Positions 10,114 through 32,241 are shown, counted from the first letter of the stretch. The stretch is 64,000 nucleotides of DNA from Planctomycetota bacterium (GCA_965223545.1 OZ245006.1:5568001-5632000), one strand, 5' to 3'. Made by a program: numbers and translations. The notes: a model not told the origin generated them from the sequence alone.

Positions 10114-11762
10114 GCCTCCGGCGCCACGAATCGTCGAGCGGCGACAACATTCTCGAGGCGTCGTCGCCGCCTTGGCAGCGACGCTGCCGCGCCGGAGGCT
10201 CGGAGAGACAGTGCCTCCGGGCTCAGCGCGGCGGCGGATGTGTCGGGCCTTCCAAGCCGCTCCGGCAAAAGCGGCATCCGAGTTTGGTTGCGGCCGTGGC
10301 CGCGCTGAGCCTCCGGCGCCACGAATCGTCGAGCGGCGACAACATTCTCGAGGCGTCGTCGCCGCCTTGGCAACGTCGCCGCCGCGCCGGAGGCTCGGAG
10401 AGACAGTGCCTCCGGGCTCAGCGCGGCGGCGGATGTGTCAGGCCTTCCAAGCCGCTCCGGAAAAAGCGGCATCCGAGTTTGGTTGCGGCCGTGGCCGCGC
10501 TGAGCCTCCGGCGCCACGAATCGTCGAGCGGCGACAACATTCTCGAGGCGTCGTCGCCGCCTTGGCAACGTCGCCGCCGCGCCGGAGGCTCGGAGAGACA
10601 GTGCCTCCTGGCTCAGTGCGGCGGCGGATGTGTCGGGCCTTCCAAGCCGCTCCGGCAAAAGCGGCATCCGAGTTTGGTTGCGGCCGTGGCCGCGCTGAGC
10701 CTCCGGCGGCGGGGCGAGACCCCGGGGCGGTGGCCCCTGCTGTTGGCCGGCGCGCTGATCCTGCCGTGGTGGCTGTCGCCGGGATCGGTGGCGGCGGCTG
10801 GCGAGCGCGTGCGCGGAGTGACGATCTCGACGCACGGCAGCGGCCGCGACTGGGGCCACGACGTGATCGTGCCGACGATCGCCGAGATCCGGTCGATCGG
10901 CGCCGGCTGGGTCGCCACCCATCCGTACGCGCGGATCGGCGCGGATGGGAGTGTGCGTTTTGCCGACTTCGCCGACGGCGAGCCACCGGAGTACCTGGTG
11001 CGGCCGATCCGCGAAGCCCACGCGCAGGGGATGAAGATCTTGATCAAGCCGCACCTGGCCTACTGGGGGTCGCCGTTCGCGTGGCGGGGTGAGATCGAGT
11101 TCGACGCCGAGCAGGCCTGGCAGCGGTTCTTCGCCGACTACGAGCGCTGGATCGTCAAGCTGGCGCGCGCCTGTCGCGCGGCCGACGCGTTTGCGGTCGG
11201 CACCGAGCTCGATCGCACCGTGCATCGCGAGGCCCGCTGGCGCGCGATCATCGACCGAGTGCGCGCGGCGACGCCGGCGCCGCTGACCTACGCGGCAAAC
11301 TGGACCGACTACCGGCGGGTGCCGTTCTGGGACGCGGTCGACGCGATCGGCATCCAGGCCTACTTTCCGCTGGCCGAGCGGGCCGCGCCCTCGCGCCAGC
11401 AGCTGCGCGATGGCTGGGCCCGGCTGATGACCGGACTGCGCGCCTACTCCGTCGCGCGCGGCCGCCACATCGTGTTCACCGAGCTCGGCTACAACCGGTC
11501 GCACCAGGCACCGGTGCGGCCCTGGGAGGCGCATTCCGACGGCGCCGACGCAGAGGCGATCCAGCTCGCGTGTTTGGCGACTGCGCTGGAGGCGATCGAG
11601 CGCGAGCCGCGCGTCGTCGGTGCGTTCTTGTGGAAGTGGTTCCCCGGCGAATACGGCCGGCGCGGTAACTTCCGCGTCGACGCGCCCGCGGTGCGCGCCC
11701 TCATCGCGCGCCACTGGCGGCCGCTGCAGCGTGCCCGGGTCAGCCCTCGATCAGACCGATGA
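10110..11762 (+). CDS. Glycoside hydrolase family 113-like (GTA TIM-barrel) protein; the first 195 codons are the repeat array
   Basis: ILIKPHL, FAVGTEL, LTYAANW, DAIGIQAYFPL, IVFTELGY; ATG overlaps the phoX stop (ATGA); signal peptide follows the array. Confidence 0.8.
   Translation: MSLRRHESSSGDNILEASSPPWQRRCRAGGSERQCLRAQRGGGCVGPSKPLRQKRHPSLVAAVAALSLRRHESSSGDNILEASSPPWQRRRRAGGSERQCLRAQRGGGCVRPSKPLRKKRHPSLVAAVAALSLRRHESSSGDNILEASSPPWQRRRRAGGSERQCLLAQCGGGCVGPSKPLRQKRHPSLVAAVAALSLRRRGETPGRWPLLLAGALILPWWLSPGSVAAAGERVRGVTISTHGSGRDWGHDVIVPTIAEIRSIGAGWVATHPYARIGADGSVRFADFADGEPPEYLVRPIREAHAQGMKILIKPHLAYWGSPFAWRGEIEFDAEQAWQRFFADYERWIVKLARACRAADAFAVGTELDRTVHREARWRAIIDRVRAATPAPLTYAANWTDYRRVPFWDAVDAIGIQAYFPLAERAAPSRQQLRDGWARLMTGLRAYSVARGRHIVFTELGYNRSHQAPVRPWEAHSDGADAEAIQLACLATALEAIEREPRVVGAFLWKWFPGEYGRRGNFRVDAPAVRALIARHWRPLQRARVSPRSDR
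10111..10707. repeat. Tandem array of three 195-bp palindromic units plus a partial unit (family A)
   Basis: Units start TGAGCCTCCGGCG at 10111, 10306, 10501 and 10696 and are nearly identical; internal inverted repeats; each ends TTTGGTTGCGGCCGTGGCCGCGC. Confidence 0.97.
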
Positions 11763-25200: not shown

Positions 25201-25714
25201 GGCTTCGGCGGCCCGGTTTTAGTCGTTTCTTTGGCTGTTCGACAACGTTCGAGCACCGCTGCTTGCCGCTCGGCGGCGCTTCGCCGATCATCGCCGCCCG
25301 TCGCTCTGCGTCGCGATGAGCCTCAGGGTCCGCAAATCTTCGCGCGGCGACAACCTTTCGAAAGGCTCGATGCCGCTGAAACTTCGACAACGCAGCTCCC
25401 GGAGGCTCGAAGACAACACTGGCCTCCGGGCTCAGCGCGGCCGCCGGCGACCGCGGGACCCACGACCGACGCTCGGGTCGCGGAATGCTCCGTGTTTGGT
25501 TGCGGCCTCGGCCGCGCTGAGCCTCAGGGTCCGCAAATCTTCGCGCGGCGACAACCTTTCGGAAGGCTCGATGCCGCTGGAACTTCGACAACGCAGCTCC
25601 CGGAGGCTCAAAGACAACACTGGCCTCTGCGCTCAGCGCGGCCGCCCGGGACCGCTAGAATCGCGGGCTCCGCTACTGTCGCGGCGCGCTCGGCCTTTGA
25701 TATCTCCTAAGTCA

Positions 25715-25720
25715 TGTCAA
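25715..25720 (-). promoter_or_regulatory. Outward-facing -35 box TTGACA in the IS right end; pairs with TATGTG (27632-27637) across the predicted circle junction
   Basis: Predicted junction TTGACA-TGACTTAGGAGAT-ACGG-TATGTG gives a 17-bp spacer; junction promoters are known for IS110. Confidence 0.6.
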
Positions 25721-25762
25721 GGGGTTTTCGCTGGGGCTCGACATCGCGTGTGCACGGCTTGT

Positions 25763-27265
25763 TCAGGACTCTTCCACAAGACCAGGGAAGTGTTCTTGCA
25801 TGAGATCACCGATCGGGTGAGGTTGACGTGGGGATTCCACGGCCAGGCCTGTGGCGTCCATTGGGCGGCCACTCAAGTCCCTCGTCGTCGGAGTCCCCAC
25901 TCGTCCCTGTCGCCGTTGGTCGCGCTCATGCCGCTGTGGCGCGACGATGCTGCGCGTGAACTTGGCTGCGATGAGCGCGCGCGCGGCAACCTTCGTGAGC
26001 TCGTTGCCGTCGGCGTCTCGCAGGACGTAGCGGACTTGCGTCGACGCCGGCTTGTCATCGGCGCGCTGGCTGTCGCGACGCTTCAGGAGGGCGTAGACGC
26101 GGCGCGCCATCTTGCCAGCCAATGCGATGAGGATGAGGTTGTGGTGATCACCTGCGGCGTAGCGGCGAGCGTAGTACGCCGCGAAATCCGGATCCCACTG
26201 GCGAGCGACGTCAGCTGCTAGGTAGAGGTACTTCTTGAGTACTCGTTGGCCGGTTTTGGTGATTGGCATCGAGGGGTCGCTCATGCCCGTCTGCTTCCGG
26301 CGTGGACACAGTCCGCAGTAGCTCACGAACTTCTTGCCGTTCGAGAACCGCGCGATGTCGCCTACCAAGGCTTCGATGGCCGCAGCGATCGTGGGACCGA
26401 CGCCGCGCAGTTGCTCGAGTGTTCGGTCAGGATCGACGCCCAGGTAGAGCTTCTTGATCTTTGCGTCGAGCTTGCGAACGTCCGTGTTCTTGCGCTCGAT
26501 CTCATCCAGCTCGTACACCACATCCTCTTGGATGGCCTCGTAGTCGAACGGCATCTGCCCCGCAGCTCGCAGCTCAGCGTAGTACTCGGCGGCCTGTCGG
26601 CAGGACTCGAGCACGCGGTCGACCAAGCACGGGTCATGCGTTCCCTTGGATCGCTTCGTCAAGAAGCGCTCCAAGCGACTCTTCCCAAGGCCGACCGCTT
26701 TCACCGGATCGACGTAGCGCCGCAGAAACCCCATCTTAGCGGCACTGAACTTCTCTGCCCCCAAGGCCTTCATGAGGCTGGGATTCGCCAGTACCAGTAT
26801 CGCGTGCACACGACGCTTGTGGTCGCTGAGCTCGCGCGCCAACCGCTCACGCCGCTTCACGAGTCGACGGATCGTCGTCTCGTCGGCAGTTGGAACACGC
26901 AGCTGGTGGACGCCCTTTGGATCCATCTGCGGCAGACGCGCAGCGGCCTCGGCGTCTACTACGTCGGTTTTGGTGTGCTTGCTATAGAACTTCCGCAGGT
27001 CGCTCAGCTTCTGTGGTTTGCTCACGTAGATCTGGAACCCTGCGGCGTTCACGTGCGCCGCGATGGGCAGCCACGCCAACCCCGTTGGTTCCATCACGAA
27101 GCTCACCGGACCCTCGGCACCTTCCTGTGCACGGCGCAGCAGAAGGTCAATACCCTCACGGCTGTTCTCGACTGAAAACGGTCTGCCCCGAGACTTCGCA
27201 CCATCCAGAACGACGGCTCGGTGCTTGCTCCTCAAGCCGAGATCCAATCCAACGAATCGATTCAT
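25763..27265 (-). CDS. IS110 DEDD recombinase/transposase
   Basis: GLDLG, VMEPTG, KTDVVDA (DEDD); Tnp20 domain RGVGPTIA..GDIARF..YCGLCP..QTG..ITKTG..IALAGKMAR; GGAGG RBS. Confidence 0.96.
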   Translation of the reverse strand: MNRFVGLDLGLRSKHRAVVLDGAKSRGRPFSVENSREGIDLLLRRAQEGAEGPVSFVMEPTGLAWLPIAAHVNAAGFQIYVSKPQKLSDLRKFYSKHTKTDVVDAEAAARLPQMDPKGVHQLRVPTADETTIRRLVKRRERLARELSDHKRRVHAILVLANPSLMKALGAEKFSAAKMGFLRRYVDPVKAVGLGKSRLERFLTKRSKGTHDPCLVDRVLESCRQAAEYYAELRAAGQMPFDYEAIQEDVVYELDEIERKNTDVRKLDAKIKKLYLGVDPDRTLEQLRGVGPTIAAAIEALVGDIARFSNGKKFVSYCGLCPRRKQTGMSDPSMPITKTGQRVLKKYLYLAADVARQWDPDFAAYYARRYAAGDHHNLILIALAGKMARRVYALLKRRDSQRADDKPASTQVRYVLRDADGNELTKVAARALIAAKFTRSIVAPQRHERDQRRQGRVGTPTTRDLSGRPMDATGLAVESPRQPHPIGDLMQEHFPGLVEES

Positions 27266-27289
27266 GTCCCCTCCATGTTCAACGAGTGA

Positions 27290-27625
27290 GTGTCGACGAG
27301 AGGACTCTCCCTACCCGCGCAGTCCGCCTGAGGAGGCGAGTCGCCAAAACGGTTCGTGTTTCGGGGCCGTGATTTCTCACGCCGCCAATCTCCTAAATCG
27401 GGTCCCCCACGCGGGAGGAGAGTCGCAGAACCAAATGAGGGGCCGCTCGAAGCGCCACCATTGCGGCAGATCGCGAAACCTCTCCGTCGCACGCCGGGGG
27501 ACCCTAAGCTCTCTTGCGGCCGATGACCAGACTCCCGACACGACTCCTGCGGCTGCACCATCGCGCGAGTCTTCCACACCGCTACGGCGCGACGGGTGTG
27601 GAGAACTCTAGCTTCGCAGATCATG
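27290..27625 (-). ncRNA. Putative bridge RNA of the IS110 element (ends approximate)
   Basis: Two parallel loops CGAT-[9 nt]-TGG(T/C)GGCG-hairpin-CGGCCCC; one pair of guides matches the element ends, the other matches the insertion-site motif. Confidence 0.8.
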
Positions 27626-27657
27626 GAACCACACATACCGTTGCGGCCCCGGCCGCG

Positions 27658-29058
27658 TTGAGCTCATGGACCAACAACGCCCTCCGGGTGATGGCCGGCG
27701 CGGCTTGCGCGCTGTCGTTTGCCTGCGGGTCCGAGCCCGCGGCGGACCCGGCGCCTCTGCCAGCCGCGCCGGTCACCAACCGGCTCGACGTCTCCTCTGA
27801 CGTCGTCAACAACCTCGGCATCACCTACGAGCCGGCGGCCCGCGGTCACCTCGGTGTGTGGCACCGGGTGTCGGGCGAGCTGGAGGTTCCCGAGAGCCGC
27901 CGTTGGCTGCTGCGGGCGCCGGCGCGCGCGCGCGTGCTCTCGACGGTCGCCCGCTGGCAGGTGGTCGCGCAGGGCGCGGTGGTGGCGACCCTGGCCGCGC
28001 CGGAGGTCGGGCGCGTGCGGGCCGCGATCGAGCTCGCCGAACGGACCGCCGCGCAGGCGACGCGCGAGGTGGCGGCCGCCGGTGCGCGGCTGGTCGAGAG
28101 CGAGGAGCACTTGGCGGAGGCGCGCGCCTTCGAGCGCACCTGCATGGAGCGACTCGACCATCTCGAGCGGGCGGATCGGCAGGGCAACCCGCTGACCGTG
28201 CGGGAGCTGGTCGAGGCCCGCCGCGCGGTCGCCGAGGCCAGTCGGGCGCGCCTCGACGCGGCGATCGTGCGCGACGAGTTGGCGGCGCGGGTCGCCGGCA
28301 AACAGCTCGACGCCGACCGGGCCGCGGGCGACGCCGCCGCACAGCTGCAGGCGCTCGCCGTCCTGACCGGAGCCAGCGTGGCCGATCTGTCGGAGCGCAC
28401 CGAGGGCGAGCCGGCCTGGCGTCGGATCGAGCGCCTCGAGATCCGCGCCCCCGCGGATGGAGTGGTCGTCGAGCTGGCGGTGGCGGCCGGCGAGGTCATC
28501 GACGCCGGGATGCCGGTGGCGCGTCTGTTCGATACCCGCGAGCTGCGCTTCGTCGGCCGCGTGCCCGAGGGCGATCTGGGGCTGTTGGCCGGAGGCAGTA
28601 CCGTGCGTTTGGAGTTTGCCGCCAGCCTGCTGCCGCCGGTCGAGACGGTGCTCGACGCGCCGCTCTTGATCGCCGACCCAGACACCCGAATGGTGCACGT
28701 GCAGGCCGCCGTCGCCAACGGCGATGGGCAGATGGCGCACGGCATGTCCGCCACGGCGCACGTGCTCGTCGAACGCAGCGCGAGTGAAGAAGTGTTGGTC
28801 CCGCAGCGGTGCATCGTCTTCGACGGCCTGCAGGCGGTCGTGTTCAAACGCGATCCCGATGATCCGGACGTCGTCGTGCGCACCCCGGTCGAGCTCGGCG
28901 CGCGCGCGGTCGATCGCGTCGAGGTGCTCGCCGGTGTGATGGAGGGCGATGCGCTGGTCGCCGACGGCATCCGCCAGCTGGTGCGCACCGGATTGGGCAA
29001 GGCGCCGGAGGGCGGCCACTTCCACGCCGACGGCACCTGGCACCGGGACCACGAGTAG
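27658..29058 (+). CDS. RND efflux periplasmic adaptor (CusB/CzcB-like lipoprotein); current start uncertain (TTG 27658, GTG 27688 or ATG 27691)
   Basis: Lipobox LSFAC; IRAPADGVV lipoyl-like motif; His-rich C-terminus GGHFHADGTWHRDHE. Confidence 0.88.
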   Translation: MSSWTNNALRVMAGAACALSFACGSEPAADPAPLPAAPVTNRLDVSSDVVNNLGITYEPAARGHLGVWHRVSGELEVPESRRWLLRAPARARVLSTVARWQVVAQGAVVATLAAPEVGRVRAAIELAERTAAQATREVAAAGARLVESEEHLAEARAFERTCMERLDHLERADRQGNPLTVRELVEARRAVAEASRARLDAAIVRDELAARVAGKQLDADRAAGDAAAQLQALAVLTGASVADLSERTEGEPAWRRIERLEIRAPADGVVVELAVAAGEVIDAGMPVARLFDTRELRFVGRVPEGDLGLLAGGSTVRLEFAASLLPPVETVLDAPLLIADPDTRMVHVQAAVANGDGQMAHGMSATAHVLVERSASEEVLVPQRCIVFDGLQAVVFKRDPDDPDVVVRTPVELGARAVDRVEVLAGVMEGDALVADGIRQLVRTGLGKAPEGGHFHADGTWHRDHE

Positions 29059-29073
29059 GTCCCTTTCGATCGA

Positions 29074-32000
29074 ATGCTCACCGCGCTGATCGGCTGGTCT
29101 CTGCGACGGCGCGGCCTGGTGCTCGGGCTGGCGGCTCTGCTGATCGTGTTCGGGGCCTACCGCATCCCGCGGATGCCGGTCGAGGTGTTTCCCGAGCTCA
29201 ACGCCCCGACCGTCACGATCATGACCGAAGCGCCCGGCTACGCGCCGGAGGAAGTCGAGCGCGCGGTGACGTTTCCGATCGAGACCGCGCTCAACGGCAT
29301 CGCCGGGCTGCGCCGTCTGCGCTCGAGTTCGGCCCTCGGTCTGTCGATCGTCTGGGCCGAGTTCGACTTCGGCGCCGACATCTACCGCAATCGGCAGCTG
29401 ATCGCCGAGCGGCTGTCCCGGGTGCGGGGCGTGCTGCCGGCCAATGTGCATCCGCCCGAGATGACTCCGGTCGCCAGTCTCGCCGGCGAAGTCATGCTGC
29501 TCGGCTTGACCAGCCCGCAGGAACGCGCGTCGCCCCTCGAGCTGCGCCGCATCGCGGAGTTCGACCTCCGCCCACGCCTGTTGGCGGTGACCGGCGTCGC
29601 CCAGGTCACCGCGCTCGGCGGCGAGCTGCCCGAGCTGCAGATCCGCGTGTCGCCCGATGCCCTGCAGCGATACGGCTTGACCCTGGCCGAGATCGAGCGC
29701 GCGGCCGGGGCCGCGCACGCGCCGGTCGGCGCCGGCTACCTCGCCGATGTGGGAGGGCGCGAGCTGCCGCTGCGGCCGCAGACGGGGGTGGAGAGCGTCG
29801 ACGACATCGGCTCGACGGTGGTCGGCACTTGGCGGGGAGTGCCGGTGCCGCTGTCCTCCGTCGCCAGCATCGGCGTGGCGGGCGCACCGCGGCGGGGGAC
29901 CGGTTCGGCCGGGGGAAGGCCGGCGGCGATCCTCACGGTGCAGCGCGACCCGAGCGCCAACACTCTGGAGCTCACCGCTCGCCTCGACGCGGTGCTCGAC
30001 GCCTTCGCCGCGACGTTGCCCGAGGGCGTGGTGCTCGAGCGGGCCATCTTCCGGCAGGCGGACTTCATCGGTGTTGCCGTCGACAACGTGCTGGCGGCGT
30101 TGCTGGATGCCGCGCTCTTCGTGCTGGTCATTCTGTTCCTGTTCCTGCTGGACCTCCGCACGACGCTGATCACGTTGACCGCGCTGCCGCTGTCGCTGGC
30201 GGCCGCCCTGCTCGCCCTCGACGCGGTCGGTGCGACCATCAACGTGATGACTCTCGGCGGCATCGCCGTCGCCATCGGCTCGCTGGTCGACGATGCCATC
30301 GTCGACGTCGAGAACGTCTTTCGCCGCCTGCGGCAGAACGCGGGGCTGCCGCCGGAGCAGCGCCGGCCGCGCCTACGCGTCGTGTTCGAAGCCAGCGTCG
30401 AGGTCCGCCAGGCGATTCTGTTGGCCACCGCCGTCATCGTGCTCGGCTTCGTGCCCCTGTTCTTCCTCAGCGGAGTCGAGGGCCGCTTCTTCCGCCCGCT
30501 CGGCGCCGCCTACGTCATCAGTTTGGCGGCGTCGTTGCTGGTGGCCATGTCGGTGACACCGGTGCTGTGCAGCGTGCTCTTGCGGCGCGCCGCAGCCGGG
30601 TCCGTCGAGCGCGAGAGTTGGCTCGTCCGGTGGCTGCAGCGGGGTTATGGCCGGGCGCTCGAGGTCGCGCTGCGCGCGCGCGCCGTCGTGCTCGGTGCGG
30701 CGGGGCTGCTGTTGGCGTGCGCGTGCGCGCTCGCGGCGACGTTCGGCTCGTCGTTCCTGCCCGAGTTCAACGAGGGCAGCATCACGCTGTTCCTCAACAC
30801 GCCGGCGGGCACGTCGCTGCAGGAGTCGGACCGCGTCGGGCGGCGGGTCGAGCTGCGGGCGGCCGAGATCGAGGGCGTTGCCGCCGTCACGCGGCGCACC
30901 GGCCGGGCCGAGCGGGACGAGCACGCCGAGCCGGTGAGCGCGAGCGAAGTGGATGTGCGCCTGCGCCCCGGCGCGGACGTCGGCGCGGTGCGGCGAGCGC
31001 TCGTCGATCTGCTCGCGGCGACGCCGGGCGTGACGTCGCAGATCGGCGGGCCGATCGGCCACCGGCTCTCGCACATCTTGTCGGGCACACCGGCCGCCGT
31101 GGCGATCAAGGTGTTCGGCGACGACCTCGACCAGCTGCGCACGATCGCCGCCGAGATCGAGGCGGCGCTGCACCCGCTGCCGGGCGTGCGCGACCTGGTC
31201 GCCAATCGCGAAGTGTTGTCGGACACGCTGCCGATCCGTTTCGACCGCCAACGGCTGGCGCACTACGGCTTGACCCCGGCGGATGCGGCGCGCCAGCTCG
31301 AAACCGCCTTCCTCGGGCGCAGGTTGGGTGTGGTCAACCAGGGCTCCGCACGGATCGACATCGTGCTGCGCTTGGCCGAGGACGCGCGGCGCAACCTGGA
31401 CGACGTGCGCCAGTTCTTGTTGCAGGCTCCGTCCGGAGCCGTCGTCCGGCTGCAGACCGTCGCCGACGTGTACGAAGAGCAAGCGTCGAGCCTGATCACC
31501 AGGGAGAGCGTGCGTCGCAAGGCGGTGATCTCCTGCAACGTGGCGGAAGGCCACAACCTGGGCGATCTCGTCGCCGCGATCCGCGCAAGTGTCGACCCCA
31601 TCGTTGCGCGACATCAGGGCGCACACGTCGAGTACGGCGGGCAGTTCGAGGCGCAAGCCGAGGCGAGCCGGCGCATCGGGTGGACGTCGCTTGGCGTCCT
31701 CGCGGTGATCTGTCTGCTCCTCTACGGCGCCTTCGGCGCCGCCAGACCGGTTCTGCTGGTGCTGCTCAACCTCCCGTTCGCCCTGGTCGGCGGGGTCGTC
31801 GCGCTGTTCGTCGCCGATTCGCCCAGCGTGATCGACAACCTCACCGCGTTGTTCGGCGGTGGCAGCTATGTGGCTCCGGTCGTGTCGATCTCTGCCCTGG
31901 TCGGCTTCATCGGTCTCGTCGGTGTGGCCTGTCGCAACGGGCTACTGCTGATCTCGCACTGCTATCACCTGATGGAGGTGGAGAACATTGCCCGATCCGC

Positions 32001-32241
32001 CGCGATCCGAAGCGGTGCCCGGGAGCGCCTCGTGCCGATTCTGATGACGGCTCTGACCTCGGCCCTGGCCTTGATCCCGTTGGTGTTGGCCAAGGGTGAG
32101 ATCGGCAGCGAGCTGCAGTATCCGATCGCCGTGGTCATTCTGGGTGGGTTGGTCAGCAGCACGTTCCTCAACCTGTTCGTCGTGCCGGTCGCCTTCGAGG
32201 CGTTCGCCGGCAAGGCGCGGAGTGGCGGCGCTTCCCGCTGA
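29074..32241 (+). CDS. Heavy-metal RND efflux permease, CusA/CzcA family
   Basis: VFPEL..TEAPG..PEEVE..VTFPIE, AIGSLVDDAIVDVEN, FLPEFNEG, ERLVPILMTA. Confidence 0.93.
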   Translation: MLTALIGWSLRRRGLVLGLAALLIVFGAYRIPRMPVEVFPELNAPTVTIMTEAPGYAPEEVERAVTFPIETALNGIAGLRRLRSSSALGLSIVWAEFDFGADIYRNRQLIAERLSRVRGVLPANVHPPEMTPVASLAGEVMLLGLTSPQERASPLELRRIAEFDLRPRLLAVTGVAQVTALGGELPELQIRVSPDALQRYGLTLAEIERAAGAAHAPVGAGYLADVGGRELPLRPQTGVESVDDIGSTVVGTWRGVPVPLSSVASIGVAGAPRRGTGSAGGRPAAILTVQRDPSANTLELTARLDAVLDAFAATLPEGVVLERAIFRQADFIGVAVDNVLAALLDAALFVLVILFLFLLDLRTTLITLTALPLSLAAALLALDAVGATINVMTLGGIAVAIGSLVDDAIVDVENVFRRLRQNAGLPPEQRRPRLRVVFEASVEVRQAILLATAVIVLGFVPLFFLSGVEGRFFRPLGAAYVISLAASLLVAMSVTPVLCSVLLRRAAAGSVERESWLVRWLQRGYGRALEVALRARAVVLGAAGLLLACACALAATFGSSFLPEFNEGSITLFLNTPAGTSLQESDRVGRRVELRAAEIEGVAAVTRRTGRAERDEHAEPVSASEVDVRLRPGADVGAVRRALVDLLAATPGVTSQIGGPIGHRLSHILSGTPAAVAIKVFGDDLDQLRTIAAEIEAALHPLPGVRDLVANREVLSDTLPIRFDRQRLAHYGLTPADAARQLETAFLGRRLGVVNQGSARIDIVLRLAEDARRNLDDVRQFLLQAPSGAVVRLQTVADVYEEQASSLITRESVRRKAVISCNVAEGHNLGDLVAAIRASVDPIVARHQGAHVEYGGQFEAQAEASRRIGWTSLGVLAVICLLLYGAFGAARPVLLVLLNLPFALVGGVVALFVADSPSVIDNLTALFGGGSYVAPVVSISALVGFIGLVGVACRNGLLLISHCYHLMEVENIARSAAIRSGARERLVPILMTALTSALALIPLVLAKGEIGSELQYPIAVVILGGLVSSTFLNLFVVPVAFEAFAGKARSGGASR

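What the first reader, a model, noticed from the sequence alone, without database searches (positions are those of the whole stretch)
27290..27641. Readable IS110 bridge RNA whose target guides spell the resident repeat motif
Seen: on the minus strand the 375-nt left end has two parallel internal loops with a shared scaffold CGAT-[9 nt]-TGG(T/C)GGCG-hairpin-CGGCCCC. Loop 1 carries CTGCCGCAA (27469-27461) and TTTGGTT (27435-27429). Together these describe GCCGC-AA-CCAAA, the reverse complement of the repeat motif TTTGGTTGCGGC. Loop 2 carries TTAGGAGAT (27396-27388), identical to the right end (25710-25702), and ACACGAACCGTT (27359-27348), complementary at 10 of 12 positions to the left junction AACGGTATGTGT (27642-27631). 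Established: IS621 bridge RNAs use this left-guide/right-guide logic for target and donor. Inference: this is a bridge-recombinase system programmed against a multicopy genomic repeat, with target, donor and guides all visible in one window.
Basis: partly seen in the sequence, partly recalled or inferred. Interest (0 to 1): 0.92.

Follow-up and report, generated by a model that had tools for sequence, protein, structure and literature searches.

The report
IS110 bridge RNA targeting genomic repeat
This is a jumping gene of the known IS110 kind whose own two-loop guide RNA spells out both the short repeated sequence it inserts into and its own ends, so it is a very clear natural example of a known mechanism rather than a new one.

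Summary
Observation confirmed. All four guide stretches sit at the stated coordinates. The element is a 1,940-bp IS110-family insertion sequence (window 27639..25700, minus strand) with 11 near-identical copies in the genome. All 11 lie in the same orientation in GCCGCAAC|CAAA. The uninterrupted motif GCCGCAACCAAA occurs 95 times, mostly inside a REP-like repeat.

Ten related elements from metagenomes share the RNA architecture, with compensatory base changes in the stems. Their target-loop guides change with their flanks: 0 and 2 of 100,000 permutations reach the cognate match. The donor-loop guides stay constant. The bridge-RNA reading is therefore supported.

There is no shared AA core. The crossover follows AAC, the element keeps its own AT at the right end, and nothing is duplicated (11 of 11 copies; 9 of 10 relatives). 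This fits recently proposed top-strand-only transfer. Two sites carry a GGTAT footprint. The catalytic serine position holds threonine. No RNA data were available.

The scan has noted IS110 bridge RNAs before on other DNA (38 findings in at least 24 genomes). Verdict: new member of a known kind, moderate interest.

The parts
25700..27639 (-). The inserted element (1,940 bp): begins GGTATGTGTGG, ends TTAGGAGATAT
   Evidence: Bounds come from 11 copies compared with 95 uninterrupted motifs. A 1,952-nt repeat unitig 25696-27647 has depth 66.7, against about 6-8 for the flanks.
25763..27265 (-). Recombinase gene, 500 aa (DEDD RuvC-like domain plus Tnp domain)
   Evidence: ORF. PF01548 E 1.9e-24 and PF02371 E 4e-21. 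ISCro4 and IS621 transposase chains E 9e-17 and 2e-13.
27314..27509 (-). Structured core of the bridge RNA (both binding loops and their closing helices)
   Evidence: This is the window's row in alignment A3. 33 and 32 pairs are 92.6% and 95.2% paired across 11 sequences; slid controls give 35-59%.
27567..27608 (-). 5' stem-loop of the RNA (CCACAC...GTGTGG)
   Evidence: Inverted repeat I1, 14-nt arms, 86% complementary. The aligned position holds CCACAG...CTGTGG in relatives.
27461..27469 (-). Left target guide CUGCCGCAA. Its last 7 nt equal the top strand of the left flank GCCGCAA. The following U (27460) faces the target C.
27439..27459 (-). Apical hairpin of the target-binding loop
   Evidence: Helix at columns 52-61/69-78 of A3: 100% paired, 5 of 9 pairs with changes on both sides.
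27429..27435 (-). Right target guide UUUGGUU, complementary to AAC|CAAA of the target top strand
27388..27396 (-). Left donor guide UUAGGAGAU, identical to right-end positions -11 to -3
   Evidence: Only 8 of 5000 shuffles give a 9-nt match. The guide is conserved in relatives.
27363..27386 (-). Apical hairpin of the donor-binding loop
   Evidence: Helix at columns 138-143/155-160 of A3: 100% paired, 2 of 5 pairs with changes on both sides.
27348..27359 (-). Right donor guide ACACGAACCGUU, complementary to AAC|GGT..GTGT at the left junction (10 of 12)
   Evidence: (I4). ACC(G/C)U(U/G) is conserved in all 11 sequences.
27640..27650 (-). Left half of the target (GGGGCCGCAAC), the 3' arm of a REP-like hairpin GCGGCC-nnn-GGCCGC
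25692..25699 (-). Right half of the target (CAAAGGCC)
25715..25720 (-). TTGACA in the right end, 15 nt from the element's last base; taken as the -35 box of a promoter completed only in the circle
   Evidence: TTGAC(A/G), or TTGCCG in L037, lies at the same distance in all 10 relatives' loci with a right end. Its function is inferred.
27632..27637 (-). TATGTG in the left end, 2 nt from the element's first base; taken as a -10-like box. In a circle it would lie 17 nt from TTGACA.
   Evidence: GGTAT is invariant in 11 of 11 left ends. Its function is inferred. The linear copy gives 0 promoter-like sites.
25700..25701 (-). Element-borne terminal AT, in the place where a shared core dinucleotide would be expected
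   Evidence: 11 of 11 copies. 9 of 10 relatives have AT and one (L036) has AC.
25495..25506 (+). Nearest unoccupied copy of the target motif (TTTGGTTGCGGC on +), about 195 nt from the right junction
10283..10684 (+). Three further unoccupied target motifs in a 195-nt tandem repeat array (10283, 10478, 10673)

Best explanation
Window 27639..25700 (minus strand) is an intact, recently active insertion sequence of the IS110 group. It encodes a 500-aa DEDD/Tnp recombinase. Its 374-nt left end encodes a bridge RNA with a 5' stem-loop, a target-binding loop and a donor-binding loop built on a duplicated scaffold.

Shown:
- The target loop's 5' guide equals the top strand of GCCGCAA, and its 3' guide is complementary to AACCAAA.
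- The donor loop's 5' guide equals the right end TTAGGAGAT, and its 3' guide is complementary to AAC|GGTATGTGT at the left junction.
- All 11 copies sit in GCCGCAAC|CAAA in one orientation.
- The motif is part of a REP-like repeat with 95 free copies.
- Relatives keep the fold, and their target guides follow their own flanks.

Inferred:
- The RNA is made mainly from a circular form, in which TTGACA of the right end and TGgTATGTG across the joint form a promoter.
- The recombinase, guided by the RNA, cuts the top strands after AAC (target) and after TAT (donor) and joins them.
- The insertion is completed without exchange of a shared 2-bp core, i.e. by transfer of one strand followed by replication. 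This would explain why the left junction keeps the target's AC and the right junction the element's AT.
For: Protein. PF01548 and PF02371 are present. The protein is homologous to ISCro4 and IS621 transposase chains, with D8, E59, D101 and D104 aligned to their DEDD residues.

Copies and sites. There are 11 copies at 99.5-100% identity. All have identical junctions, GCCGCAAC|GGTATG and GGAGATAT|CAAA. The genome holds 95 copies of GCCGCAACCAAA, and 89 of 735 GGCCGCAA are followed by CCAAAC. 9 of the 11 left flanks carry the repeat's hairpin.

Structure. RNAalifold on 11 sequences gives 35 pairs, 13 of them with compensatory changes. My own structures are 92.6% and 95.2% paired, against 35-59% when slid; 0 of 500 shuffles reach the observed covariation score.

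Guides track flanks. The cognate left-guide/flank longest run averages 5.91, against 3.15 for non-cognate pairs; 0 of 100,000 permutations reach it. For the right guide the figures are 4.3 against 2.6, with 2 of 100,000. L033, at 54% protein identity, has the same right target guide window and the same left flank GCCGCAAC; its left guide covers CCGCAAC in a register one base further on.

Position -1. The -1 base read by both 3' guides equals the left-flank -1 base in 10 of 10 (target loop) and 11 of 11 (donor loop) loci. This includes a joint G-to-C switch in L045 and L012.

Promoter geometry. The spacing (15 nt, then the joint, then GG, then TAT) is conserved in the window's element and all 10 relatives' loci with a right end; the two copies L029 and L030 are both counted.

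Guide logic and top-strand cleavage 3' of the core are as described for IS621 (PMC11208160 passages; PMC11208158 passages). Top-strand-only transfer is reported in two preprints.
Against: No transcript evidence: no RNA run holds the stretch, and the laid contigs cannot show rare circles.

Single-sequence folding is not better than shuffles: z is -1.84 for the whole left end, and -0.86, +0.53 and -0.40 for the modules.

No Rfam family matches. The linear copy has no sigma-70-like site by the scan. The proposed -10, TATGTG, lacks the usual final T.

Three of the four guide matches are individually not rare in shuffles.

The two left guides are not in one register. The target guide's match ends 1 nt before the crossover and the donor guide's match ends 2 nt before it. 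Among relatives the left target guide ends 0 to 2 nt before the crossover, and the guide of L028 fits its flank poorly.

In L045 and L012 the donor guide's -1 base (C) would mismatch the T of a circle joint.

The relatives are not independent lineages: L028/L029, L045/L046/L012 and ours/L033 form groups. The permutation counts therefore overstate the support.
Confidence: 0.85

Rival explanations
1. Canonical IS621-like reaction. Target and donor share a 2-bp core (AA, or AW), both strands are exchanged around it, and the core ends up on both sides of the element.
For: The two target guides overlap on AA, as the IS621 guides overlap on CT. The left junction GCCGC-AA-CGGTATGTGT fits this reading. 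One relative, L036, has AC on both sides. A distant clade (L017/L018) appears to have GT on both sides (read by eye).
Against: It predicts TTAGGAG-A(A/T)-CCAAAC at the right junction. All 11 copies read TTAGGAGATAT-CAAAC, and 9 of 10 relatives keep AT there while the left junction has C or G at -1. With unlike cores, random segregation of a heteroduplex should give the swapped form (AT left, AC right) about half the time; it is seen 0 times in 11 copies. The scars this model predicts (GCCGCAAATCAAAC, GCCGCATATCAAAC) have 0 copies.
Confidence: 0.08
2. The true target is the rarer sequence GCCGCAACGGT-AT-CAAAC. The element is then 5 bp shorter (GTGTGG...GGAGAT) and is flanked by a canonical AT core on both sides. 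The common motif GCCGCAACCAAA is not the target.
For: Two empty sites with exactly this sequence exist. AT would be a perfect duplicated core with T at the second position, as in IS621. ACAC of the donor guide pairs with GTGT.
Against: - GGTAT is found only next to the element (11 sites) or at the 2 footprint sites. It is spread over all three sub-types of the repeat and over 2 sites whose left flank is not the repeat, while 95 sites lack it.
- GGTAT starts the left end in 11 of 11 related elements whatever their flank.
- The right target guide spells AACCAAA, which exists only in the common motif.
- ACCGUU of the donor guide would be left unexplained.
- In a 5-bp shorter circle the TTGACA-to-TAT spacing would fall to 12.
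Confidence: 0.05
3. The left-end matches are protein-binding sites or a structured 5' leader that only regulates recombinase translation. No RNA guides the choice of site.
For: No expression data. Near the start codon there is a conserved GGAGG..CCTCC hairpin that could mask the ribosome-binding site (columns about 324-340). Single-sequence fold energies are unremarkable.
Against: Compensatory changes keep the helices, which argues for selection at the RNA level. The variable loop stretches follow each element's own flanks on both strands, which protein sites within the element cannot explain. The protein belongs to the family for which RNA guidance has been shown.
Confidence: 0.04

Closest known systems
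IS621 of Escherichia coli with its 177-nt bridge RNA (IS110 group; Durrant et al. 2024, PMC11208160; Hiraizumi et al. 2024, PMC11208158; passages read)
   Same: - A DEDD plus Tnp recombinase, with the RNA in the left end upstream of the gene.
- A 5' stem-loop, then a target loop, then a donor loop.
[quoted passage not shown]
- The right donor guide pairs discontiguously.
- A promoter is split between the right and left ends.
- The natural targets are repeated extragenic elements; for IS621 this point is recalled and was not read in the passages I saw.
   Different: - Protein similarity is low (E 2e-13 over residues 262-396; 500 aa against 328 aa in the solved chain).
- No shared CT-type core: the target has AC and the donor has AT, and nothing is duplicated.
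- The left donor guide does not cover the last two bases of the right end.
- The position of the catalytic S241 holds threonine (QTG against ESG).
- The RNA is larger and has extra closing helices.
ISPpu10 / ISPpu9 of Pseudomonas putida (IS110 family elements inserting in REP sequences; Na et al. 2026 preprint, abstract only; PMC12288879, search listing only)
   Same: Multicopy element homing to one conserved intergenic repeat. The left half of the target is a GC-rich stem-loop (here GCGGCC-nnn-GGCCGC, in 9 of 11 left flanks).
   Different: Whether the hairpin is itself a recognition feature was not tested here. 2 of 11 insertions lack the repeat's left part. The host and the sequences are different.
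CazIS110-1 (Sun et al. 2025 preprint, abstract and passages) and IS621 in cell-free reactions (Xie et al. 2026 preprint, abstract)
   Same: Both report copy-out and insertion through the top strand alone. The junctions here (target bases kept on the left, element bases kept on the right, swapped form never seen) are what that model predicts when donor and target differ at the crossover.
   Different: Those are biochemical results on other elements. Here the mechanism is only inferred from genome sequence.
IS1111-group elements with seekRNA in the right end (Siddiquee et al. 2024, PMC11187229; search listing only)
   Same: Same protein family and the same idea of an RNA that reads flank and end. 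Two such elements live in this genome, and one uses the same repeat family.
   Different: The element studied here has a long left end, no subterminal inverted repeats, and its RNA lies upstream of the gene. It therefore belongs to the IS110 group, not the IS1111 group.

Membership tests
IS110 family insertion sequence (IS110 group) | N-terminal DEDD RuvC-like domain (PF01548) | tested here: met
   E 1.9e-24, residues 5-162. D8, E59, D101 and D104 align with GIDVS, MEAT and KTDAVDA of ISCro4 and are invariant in 10 relatives.
IS110 family insertion sequence (IS110 group) | C-terminal Tnp domain (PF02371) with the conserved serine that forms the covalent link (S241-G242 in IS621) | tested here: inconclusive
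   The domain is present (E 4e-21). The aligned position reads Q-T-G, i.e. T326 in place of the serine of E-S-G (S241/G242 context). A hydroxyl residue is kept. Threonine is shared with 8 related loci and serine is found in 18 of the 26 loci where the motif was found (88 scanned).
IS110 family insertion sequence (IS110 group) | Long non-coding left end, no terminal inverted repeats | tested here: met
   The left end is 374 nt, from 27639 to 27266. The ends GGTATGTGTGG and TTAGGAGATAT are not inverted copies of each other (read).
IS110 family insertion sequence (IS110 group) | Orientation-specific insertion at one short sequence | tested here: met
   11 of 11 copies lie in GCCGCAAC|CAAA in the same orientation.
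IS110 family insertion sequence (IS110 group) | The same core dinucleotide on both sides of the element | tested here: not met
   AC on the left and AT on the right in 11 of 11 copies. Among relatives, 9 of 10 have AT on the right with C or G at -1 on the left.
Bridge RNA (IS621 type) | Two internal loops, each with a sense 5' guide and an antisense 3' guide, closed by stems | tested here: met
Bridge RNA (IS621 type) | Target-loop guides match both strands of the insertion site and overlap at the crossover | tested here: met
   GCCGCAA (sense) and AACCAAA (antisense) overlap on AA.
Bridge RNA (IS621 type) | Donor-loop guides match the joined right and left ends and overlap on the core by 2 nt | tested here: inconclusive
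   9 of 9 to the right end and 10 of 12 to the left junction. On the predicted joint ...GATAT|GGTATG... the two footprints overlap by 1 nt only. The joint itself was not observed.
Bridge RNA (IS621 type) | Target guides covary with insertion sites across related elements; donor guides are conserved | tested here: met
   (0 and 2 of 100,000 permutations).
Bridge RNA (IS621 type) | [quoted passage not shown] | tested here: inconclusive
   TTGACA, then 17 nt, then TATGTG, with TGn formed across the joint. The geometry is kept in all 10 relatives' loci with a right end. The -10 is weak and no transcript data exist.
Bridge RNA (IS621 type) | The RNA is expressed and required for recombination | not testable with these tools
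   No RNA holder is listed; only contigs could be laid.
Bridge RNA (IS621 type) | Match to a curated RNA family model | tested here: inconclusive
   No relevant Rfam match at E up to 10. I do not know whether Rfam 15 holds a bridge RNA model.

The most novel reading that the evidence does not exclude
This sub-family is a natural experiment showing that bridge recombination in cells transfers one strand only. Donor and target differ at the base before the crossover (T against C or G). Both 3' guides read the target's base, and a G in the RNA can also wobble-pair with the donor's T. The element always carries its own AT along and always leaves the target's base on the left. The retained T would serve to create a TGn extended -10 box only in the circle. 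The enzyme would work with a threonine nucleophile. The GGTAT footprints would mark a second, in-element cleavage site 5 nt inside the left end.
Probability: 0.3. Interest if true: 0.6.

Novelty: new member of a known kind. Interest (0 to 1): 0.4.

Why it matters
The mechanism itself was published in 2024, and thousands of IS110 elements were already surveyed by computation, so a further readable bridge RNA is not a surprise.

The value of this locus is as a clean natural data set. One genome holds 11 occupied sites, 95 free sites and 2 footprints, and there are relatives whose guides have drifted with their targets.

The junctions add something that bears on a current dispute: Holliday-junction exchange of both strands against top-strand-only transfer. 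Where donor and target differ at the crossover, only the top-strand arrangement is seen, in 11 of 11 copies and 9 of 10 relatives.

A threonine at the nucleophile position and a target without any T at the core would widen the known design space of bridge recombinases, if activity is confirmed.

Tried and rejected
1. AA-core canonical model. It predicts TTAGGAG-AW-CCAAAC on the right. This was not seen in 0 of 11 copies, and the scars it predicts have 0 copies.

2. Footprint-type sequence as the true target. Rejected on abundance and on GGTAT being invariant in all related left ends.

3. Rfam search at E up to 10. Only two chance-level hits, snoTBR5 and HOXB13-AS1_2.

4. Single-sequence folding. 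z-scores were -1.84, -0.86, +0.53 and -0.40. The minimum-energy folds pair the guides with each other and were not used.

5. Close relatives in genomes. Only distant ones were found in genome contigs (8 loci, best 42% identity). In the order search 1 of 200 other genomes had a match, and it was weak. L031, the closest protein at 58%, has lost the RNA region.

6. RNA evidence. No RNA holder is listed.

7. Contigs of X1, X5, X6 and X7 laid on the element. No right-end-to-left-end joint appeared. The joints that skip the element come from paralogous repeats. X5-X7 carry the same element at 100% identity with many loose ends at GATC, and in the one right flank that I read they have the same flank, so they are not independent.

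8. Promoter scan of the linear copy. 0 sites.

9. Search for a second, upstream copy of each element's own guides. No consistent pattern across relatives.

10. Paper search for a threonine nucleophile in bridge recombinases. One search, listing only, nothing relevant.

11. Building a covariance model. Left out, because hand-set structures counted on the MAFFT alignment already answered the question. The base stems next to the target loop could not be put in common columns because loop lengths differ.

The comparison was then run on sequences that the script read from the stored loci.

Full report
**What is at the coordinates.** Read on the minus strand, the stretch 27641-27266 lies directly upstream of a 500-aa ORF at 27265..25763. 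The protein carries PF01548 (DEDD_Tnp_IS110, E 1.9e-24) and PF02371 (Transposase_20, E 4e-21). Among solved structures it matches only the ISCro4 and IS621 transposases, E 9e-17 and 2e-13.

**Limits of the element, and its target.** The genome (8.1 Mb, 70% G+C, 2 contigs) holds 11 copies at 99.5-100% identity. All 11 read ...GCCGCAAC|GGTATGTGTGG... on the left and ...TTAGGAGATAT|CAAA(C/G)... on the right. The uninterrupted 12-mer GCCGCAACCAAA occurs 95 times, and 89 of 735 GGCCGCAA are followed by CCAAAC. Nearly all of these lie in a REP-like repeat, CTCAGCGCGGCC-nn-GGCCGCAACCAAAC, followed by one of three kinds of right half. Four free copies are in the window.

Comparing free and occupied sites leaves only one simple reading. 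A 1,940-bp segment, GGTATG...GAGATAT (window 27639..25700), lies between the two Cs of AAC|CAAAC, and no base is duplicated. Nine of the 11 left flanks carry the repeat's hairpin. One copy (C1 position about 7.27 Mb) has a non-repeat left flank, and one (about 5.14 Mb) is outside the repeat on both sides but still shows CCGCAAC|CAAAC.

**Is it more than chance?** In 5000 dinucleotide shuffles of the left end, the observed longest exact matches were reached 246, 368, 8 and 839 times for the four guides. All four were reached together 0 times. Taken singly, only the 9-nt identity with the right end is rare. The argument therefore rests on the arrangement and on comparison with relatives.

**Relatives.**
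- Genome collections gave only distant relatives: 8 loci, best 42% identity. One weak match appeared among 200 other genomes of the order.
- A metagenome scan with a 6-protein alignment gave 80 loci.
- Ten loci (L032, L033, L034, L028, L029, L036, L037, L045, L046, and L012 from the genome collection; 41-56% protein identity) have left ends that align with ours over their whole length.
- All of these left ends begin with GGTAT.
- Where the right end is on the contig, it ends cTTGAC(A/G), or TTGCCG in L037, then N5-TTAGG(A/C)GA(T/A)-A(T/C).
- L031, the closest protein at 58%, has lost the RNA region.

**Structure.** RNAalifold on the 11 core regions gives 35 pairs, 13 of them with compensatory changes. 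I set two structures by hand on that alignment. Each has the two apical hairpins, the outer stem of the target loop and a short base stem of the donor loop. One adds a 9-bp helix between segments A and B, which closes the target loop. The other adds a helix between B and C, which closes the donor loop.

- The structures are 92.6% and 95.2% paired.
- The same pairs slid by 1-3 columns are 35-59% paired.
- 13 pairs in each structure change on both sides.
- 0 of 500 shuffles reach the observed covariation score.
- The two apical hairpins are 100% paired.

Segment B can pair with either A or C, and both alternatives show compensatory changes. They cannot form together. Single-sequence folding gave no useful signal, with z from -1.84 to +0.53. 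Rfam has no match.

**Do guides follow insertion sites?** In the alignment the two donor-loop guides are nearly constant, U(U/A/G)AGG(A/C)GAU and ...ACC(G/C)U(U/G). The two target-loop guides differ between elements. For each locus a script took the 12 nt before the apical stem, the 9 nt after it, and the flanks.

| Guide | Cognate mean longest run | Non-cognate mean | Permutations reaching the cognate sum |
|---|---|---|---|
| Left target guide (11 loci) | 5.91 | 3.15 | 0 of 100,000 |
| Right target guide (10 loci) | 4.3 | 2.6 | 2 of 100,000 |

The fit is not uniform. L028's left guide fits its flank poorly (run of 3), and L045's fits only moderately (run of 4). The loci fall into a few related groups, so the permutation figures overstate independence. 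L033, from a soil metagenome, has the same right target guide window as ours and the same left flank GCCGCAAC next to a GCGGC-AAA-GCCGC hairpin. Its left guide covers CCGCAAC, one base further on than ours.

**Comparison with the published logic.** In IS621 the left guides equal the top strand (they pair with the bottom strand) and the right guides pair with the top strand. All four include the CT core, and the top strands are cut 3' of the core, between T9 and position 10. The serine S241, next to G242, becomes linked to the 5' phosphate (PMC11208160 passages; PMC11208158 passages). Here the polarity and order of all four guides are the same.

The core is not the same. All 11 copies read TTAGGAGATAT-CAAAC. 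Counting from the observed crossover:
- The base at -1 on the left is C in 9 of 11 loci and G in 2.
- The base that the right target guide would pair with at -1 equals it in 10 of 10 loci.
- The base that the right donor guide would pair with at -1 equals it in 11 of 11 loci. This includes a joint switch of flank, target guide and donor guide in L045 and L012.
- The last base of the right end is T in 9 of 10 loci and C only in L036.

So the target's two bases stay on the left and the element's AT stays on the right. With exchange of both strands around unlike cores one expects a heteroduplex and, after replication, the swapped arrangement about half the time. It is never seen. I infer that only one strand is transferred and the rest is copied. 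Two preprints report this from biochemistry for CazIS110-1 and IS621 (abstracts and passages). It remains an inference from sequence. A strongly biased repair would give the same picture.

**Registers that do not fit neatly.**
- The left target guide's match ends 1 nt before the crossover. The next RNA base, U, could wobble with the bottom-strand G.
- In L033 and L034 the left target guide reaches the crossover. In L029 and L012 it stops 2 nt before.
- The left donor guide's 9-nt match ends 2 nt before the end of the element, so it does not cover AT.
- On the predicted joint the two donor guides overlap by 1 nt, not 2.
- In L045 and L012 the donor guide's C would face the joint's T.

I cannot resolve these points without the joint sequence or a structure.

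**Promoter.** TTGACA (25720-25715) lies 15 nt from the last base of the element, and TATGTG (27637-27632) lies 2 nt from the first. In a circle they would be 17 nt apart. The last T of the right end and the first G of the left end would form TGn just before the -10 box; the extended -10 rule is recalled knowledge. The same distances hold in all 10 relatives' loci with a right end, L029 and L030 being two copies of one element. The -10 is weak, with no final T, and the linear copy has no promoter-like site. A promoter split across the joint is described for IS621. For this element it is inferred.

**Footprints.** Two repeat copies read GCCGCAAC-GGTAT-CAAAC. One is at C1 + strand offset 611,323. 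The other is at reverse-strand offset 7,528,237 of C1. These are the free motif plus the first five bases of the element. They are what is left if the left cut falls after GGTAT instead of before it, because GGTAT| resembles the right end's GATAT|. I take them as excision scars. The alternative, that this rarer sequence is the true target with a canonical AT core, is rejected for the reasons given under the rival explanations.

**The protein.** D8, E59, D101 and D104 align with the DEDD residues. IS621's E-S-G, which holds S241 and G242, aligns with our Q-T-G, so position 326 is threonine. In a motif scan of 88 loci the motif was found in 26, with serine in 18 and threonine in 8. All 8 with threonine belong to the clade of L012, L028-30, L036, L037, L045 and L046. 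Our element's nearest relatives (L031-L034) have serine. Eleven nearly identical intact copies argue that the threonine form is active. One paper search (listing only) found no mention of this.

**Expression and circles.** No public RNA run holds the stretch. Contigs of four runs were laid on the element. They confirm the repeat unit 25696-27647 at about ten times the depth of the flanks. They show no right-to-left joint, which contigs could not be expected to show.

**Verdict.** The element is a new member of a known kind. The scan has recorded the same kind of finding on other DNA (38 findings in at least 24 genomes). The features worth a specialist's attention are the unlike bases at the crossover with strictly one-sided inheritance, the threonine, the footprints and the mutually exclusive closing helices.

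Noticed in passing
window 27326-27328 region of the ORF (protein residue T326, motif PRRKQTG): The position aligned with the catalytic serine of IS621 (S241 of E-S-G) is threonine here and in 8 related loci. Serine is found in 18 of the 26 loci where the motif was found.
   Followed up: partly
G000 C1: + strand offset 611,323; and reverse-strand offset 7,528,237: Two repeat copies read GCCGCAAC-GGTAT-CAAAC, i.e. the free target plus the element's first 5 bases. They are probably excision footprints from a cut 5 nt inside the left end.
   Followed up: partly
window 27514-27524 (minus strand AUCGGCCGCAA) versus 27461-27471: A second copy of the left target guide lies 53 nt upstream (10 of 11 identical). 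It matches the genomic target one base further (GGCCGCAA) but has no apical hairpin behind it. L033 instead has a second AUUUGGUU at the same place. No consistent pattern was found in other relatives.
   Followed up: partly
window 27496-27504 / 27400-27408 (A:B) and 27410-27422 / 27307-27319 (B:C): The segment between the two loops can pair either with a segment upstream of the target loop or with one downstream of the donor loop. Both alternatives are kept by compensatory changes in relatives and cannot form together. This could be a switch or pairing between two RNA molecules.
   Followed up: partly
G000 C1, e.g. 614,496-615,9xx and 6,849,6xx (just downstream of another copy of the studied element): A second, smaller IS110-family element has 3-4 copies, a short left end and subterminal inverted repeats, so it is IS1111-like. 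It inserts in the same repeat family at another point, GTTGTCTTYGAG|CCTCCGGG, with AG on both sides.
   Followed up: partly
G000 C1, 23 places (e.g. 517,053-518,730): A third IS110-family element has 23 copies of about 1.67 kb with ends GGAGCCAGTCC...CAGGCTCC(G), inserted next to ..GTAC / ..CATCA-like sequences. Only 6 copies were looked at.
   Followed up: no
left flanks of L032, L033, L034, L029, L036 and of the window's element: The left half of the target is often palindromic or the arm of a hairpin (GTCTT-G-AAGAC, GCGGC-AAA-GCCGC, TGGCCA, CGATCG, TGCGCA, GCGGCC-nnn-GGCCGC). This recalls the target stem-loop reported for ISPpu10. Read by eye only.
   Followed up: no
window 27640-27700 and 27514-29058 (+): The element sits a few tens of bases upstream of a membrane-fusion-protein gene followed by an RND pump gene (29074-32241), facing away from them. 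The 124-aa ORF 27262-27636 (minus) that overlaps the RNA region is probably spurious.
   Followed up: no
L017 and L018 (two copies in one metagenome-assembled genome): A distant clade (27% protein identity) keeps the donor-loop scaffold CCCGAU-[9]-UGGGGCG...CGGCCCC and the TTGACA-plus-15-nt geometry. It appears to have GT on both sides of the element, i.e. a canonical shared core. One copy has an extra G at the left junction.
   Followed up: partly
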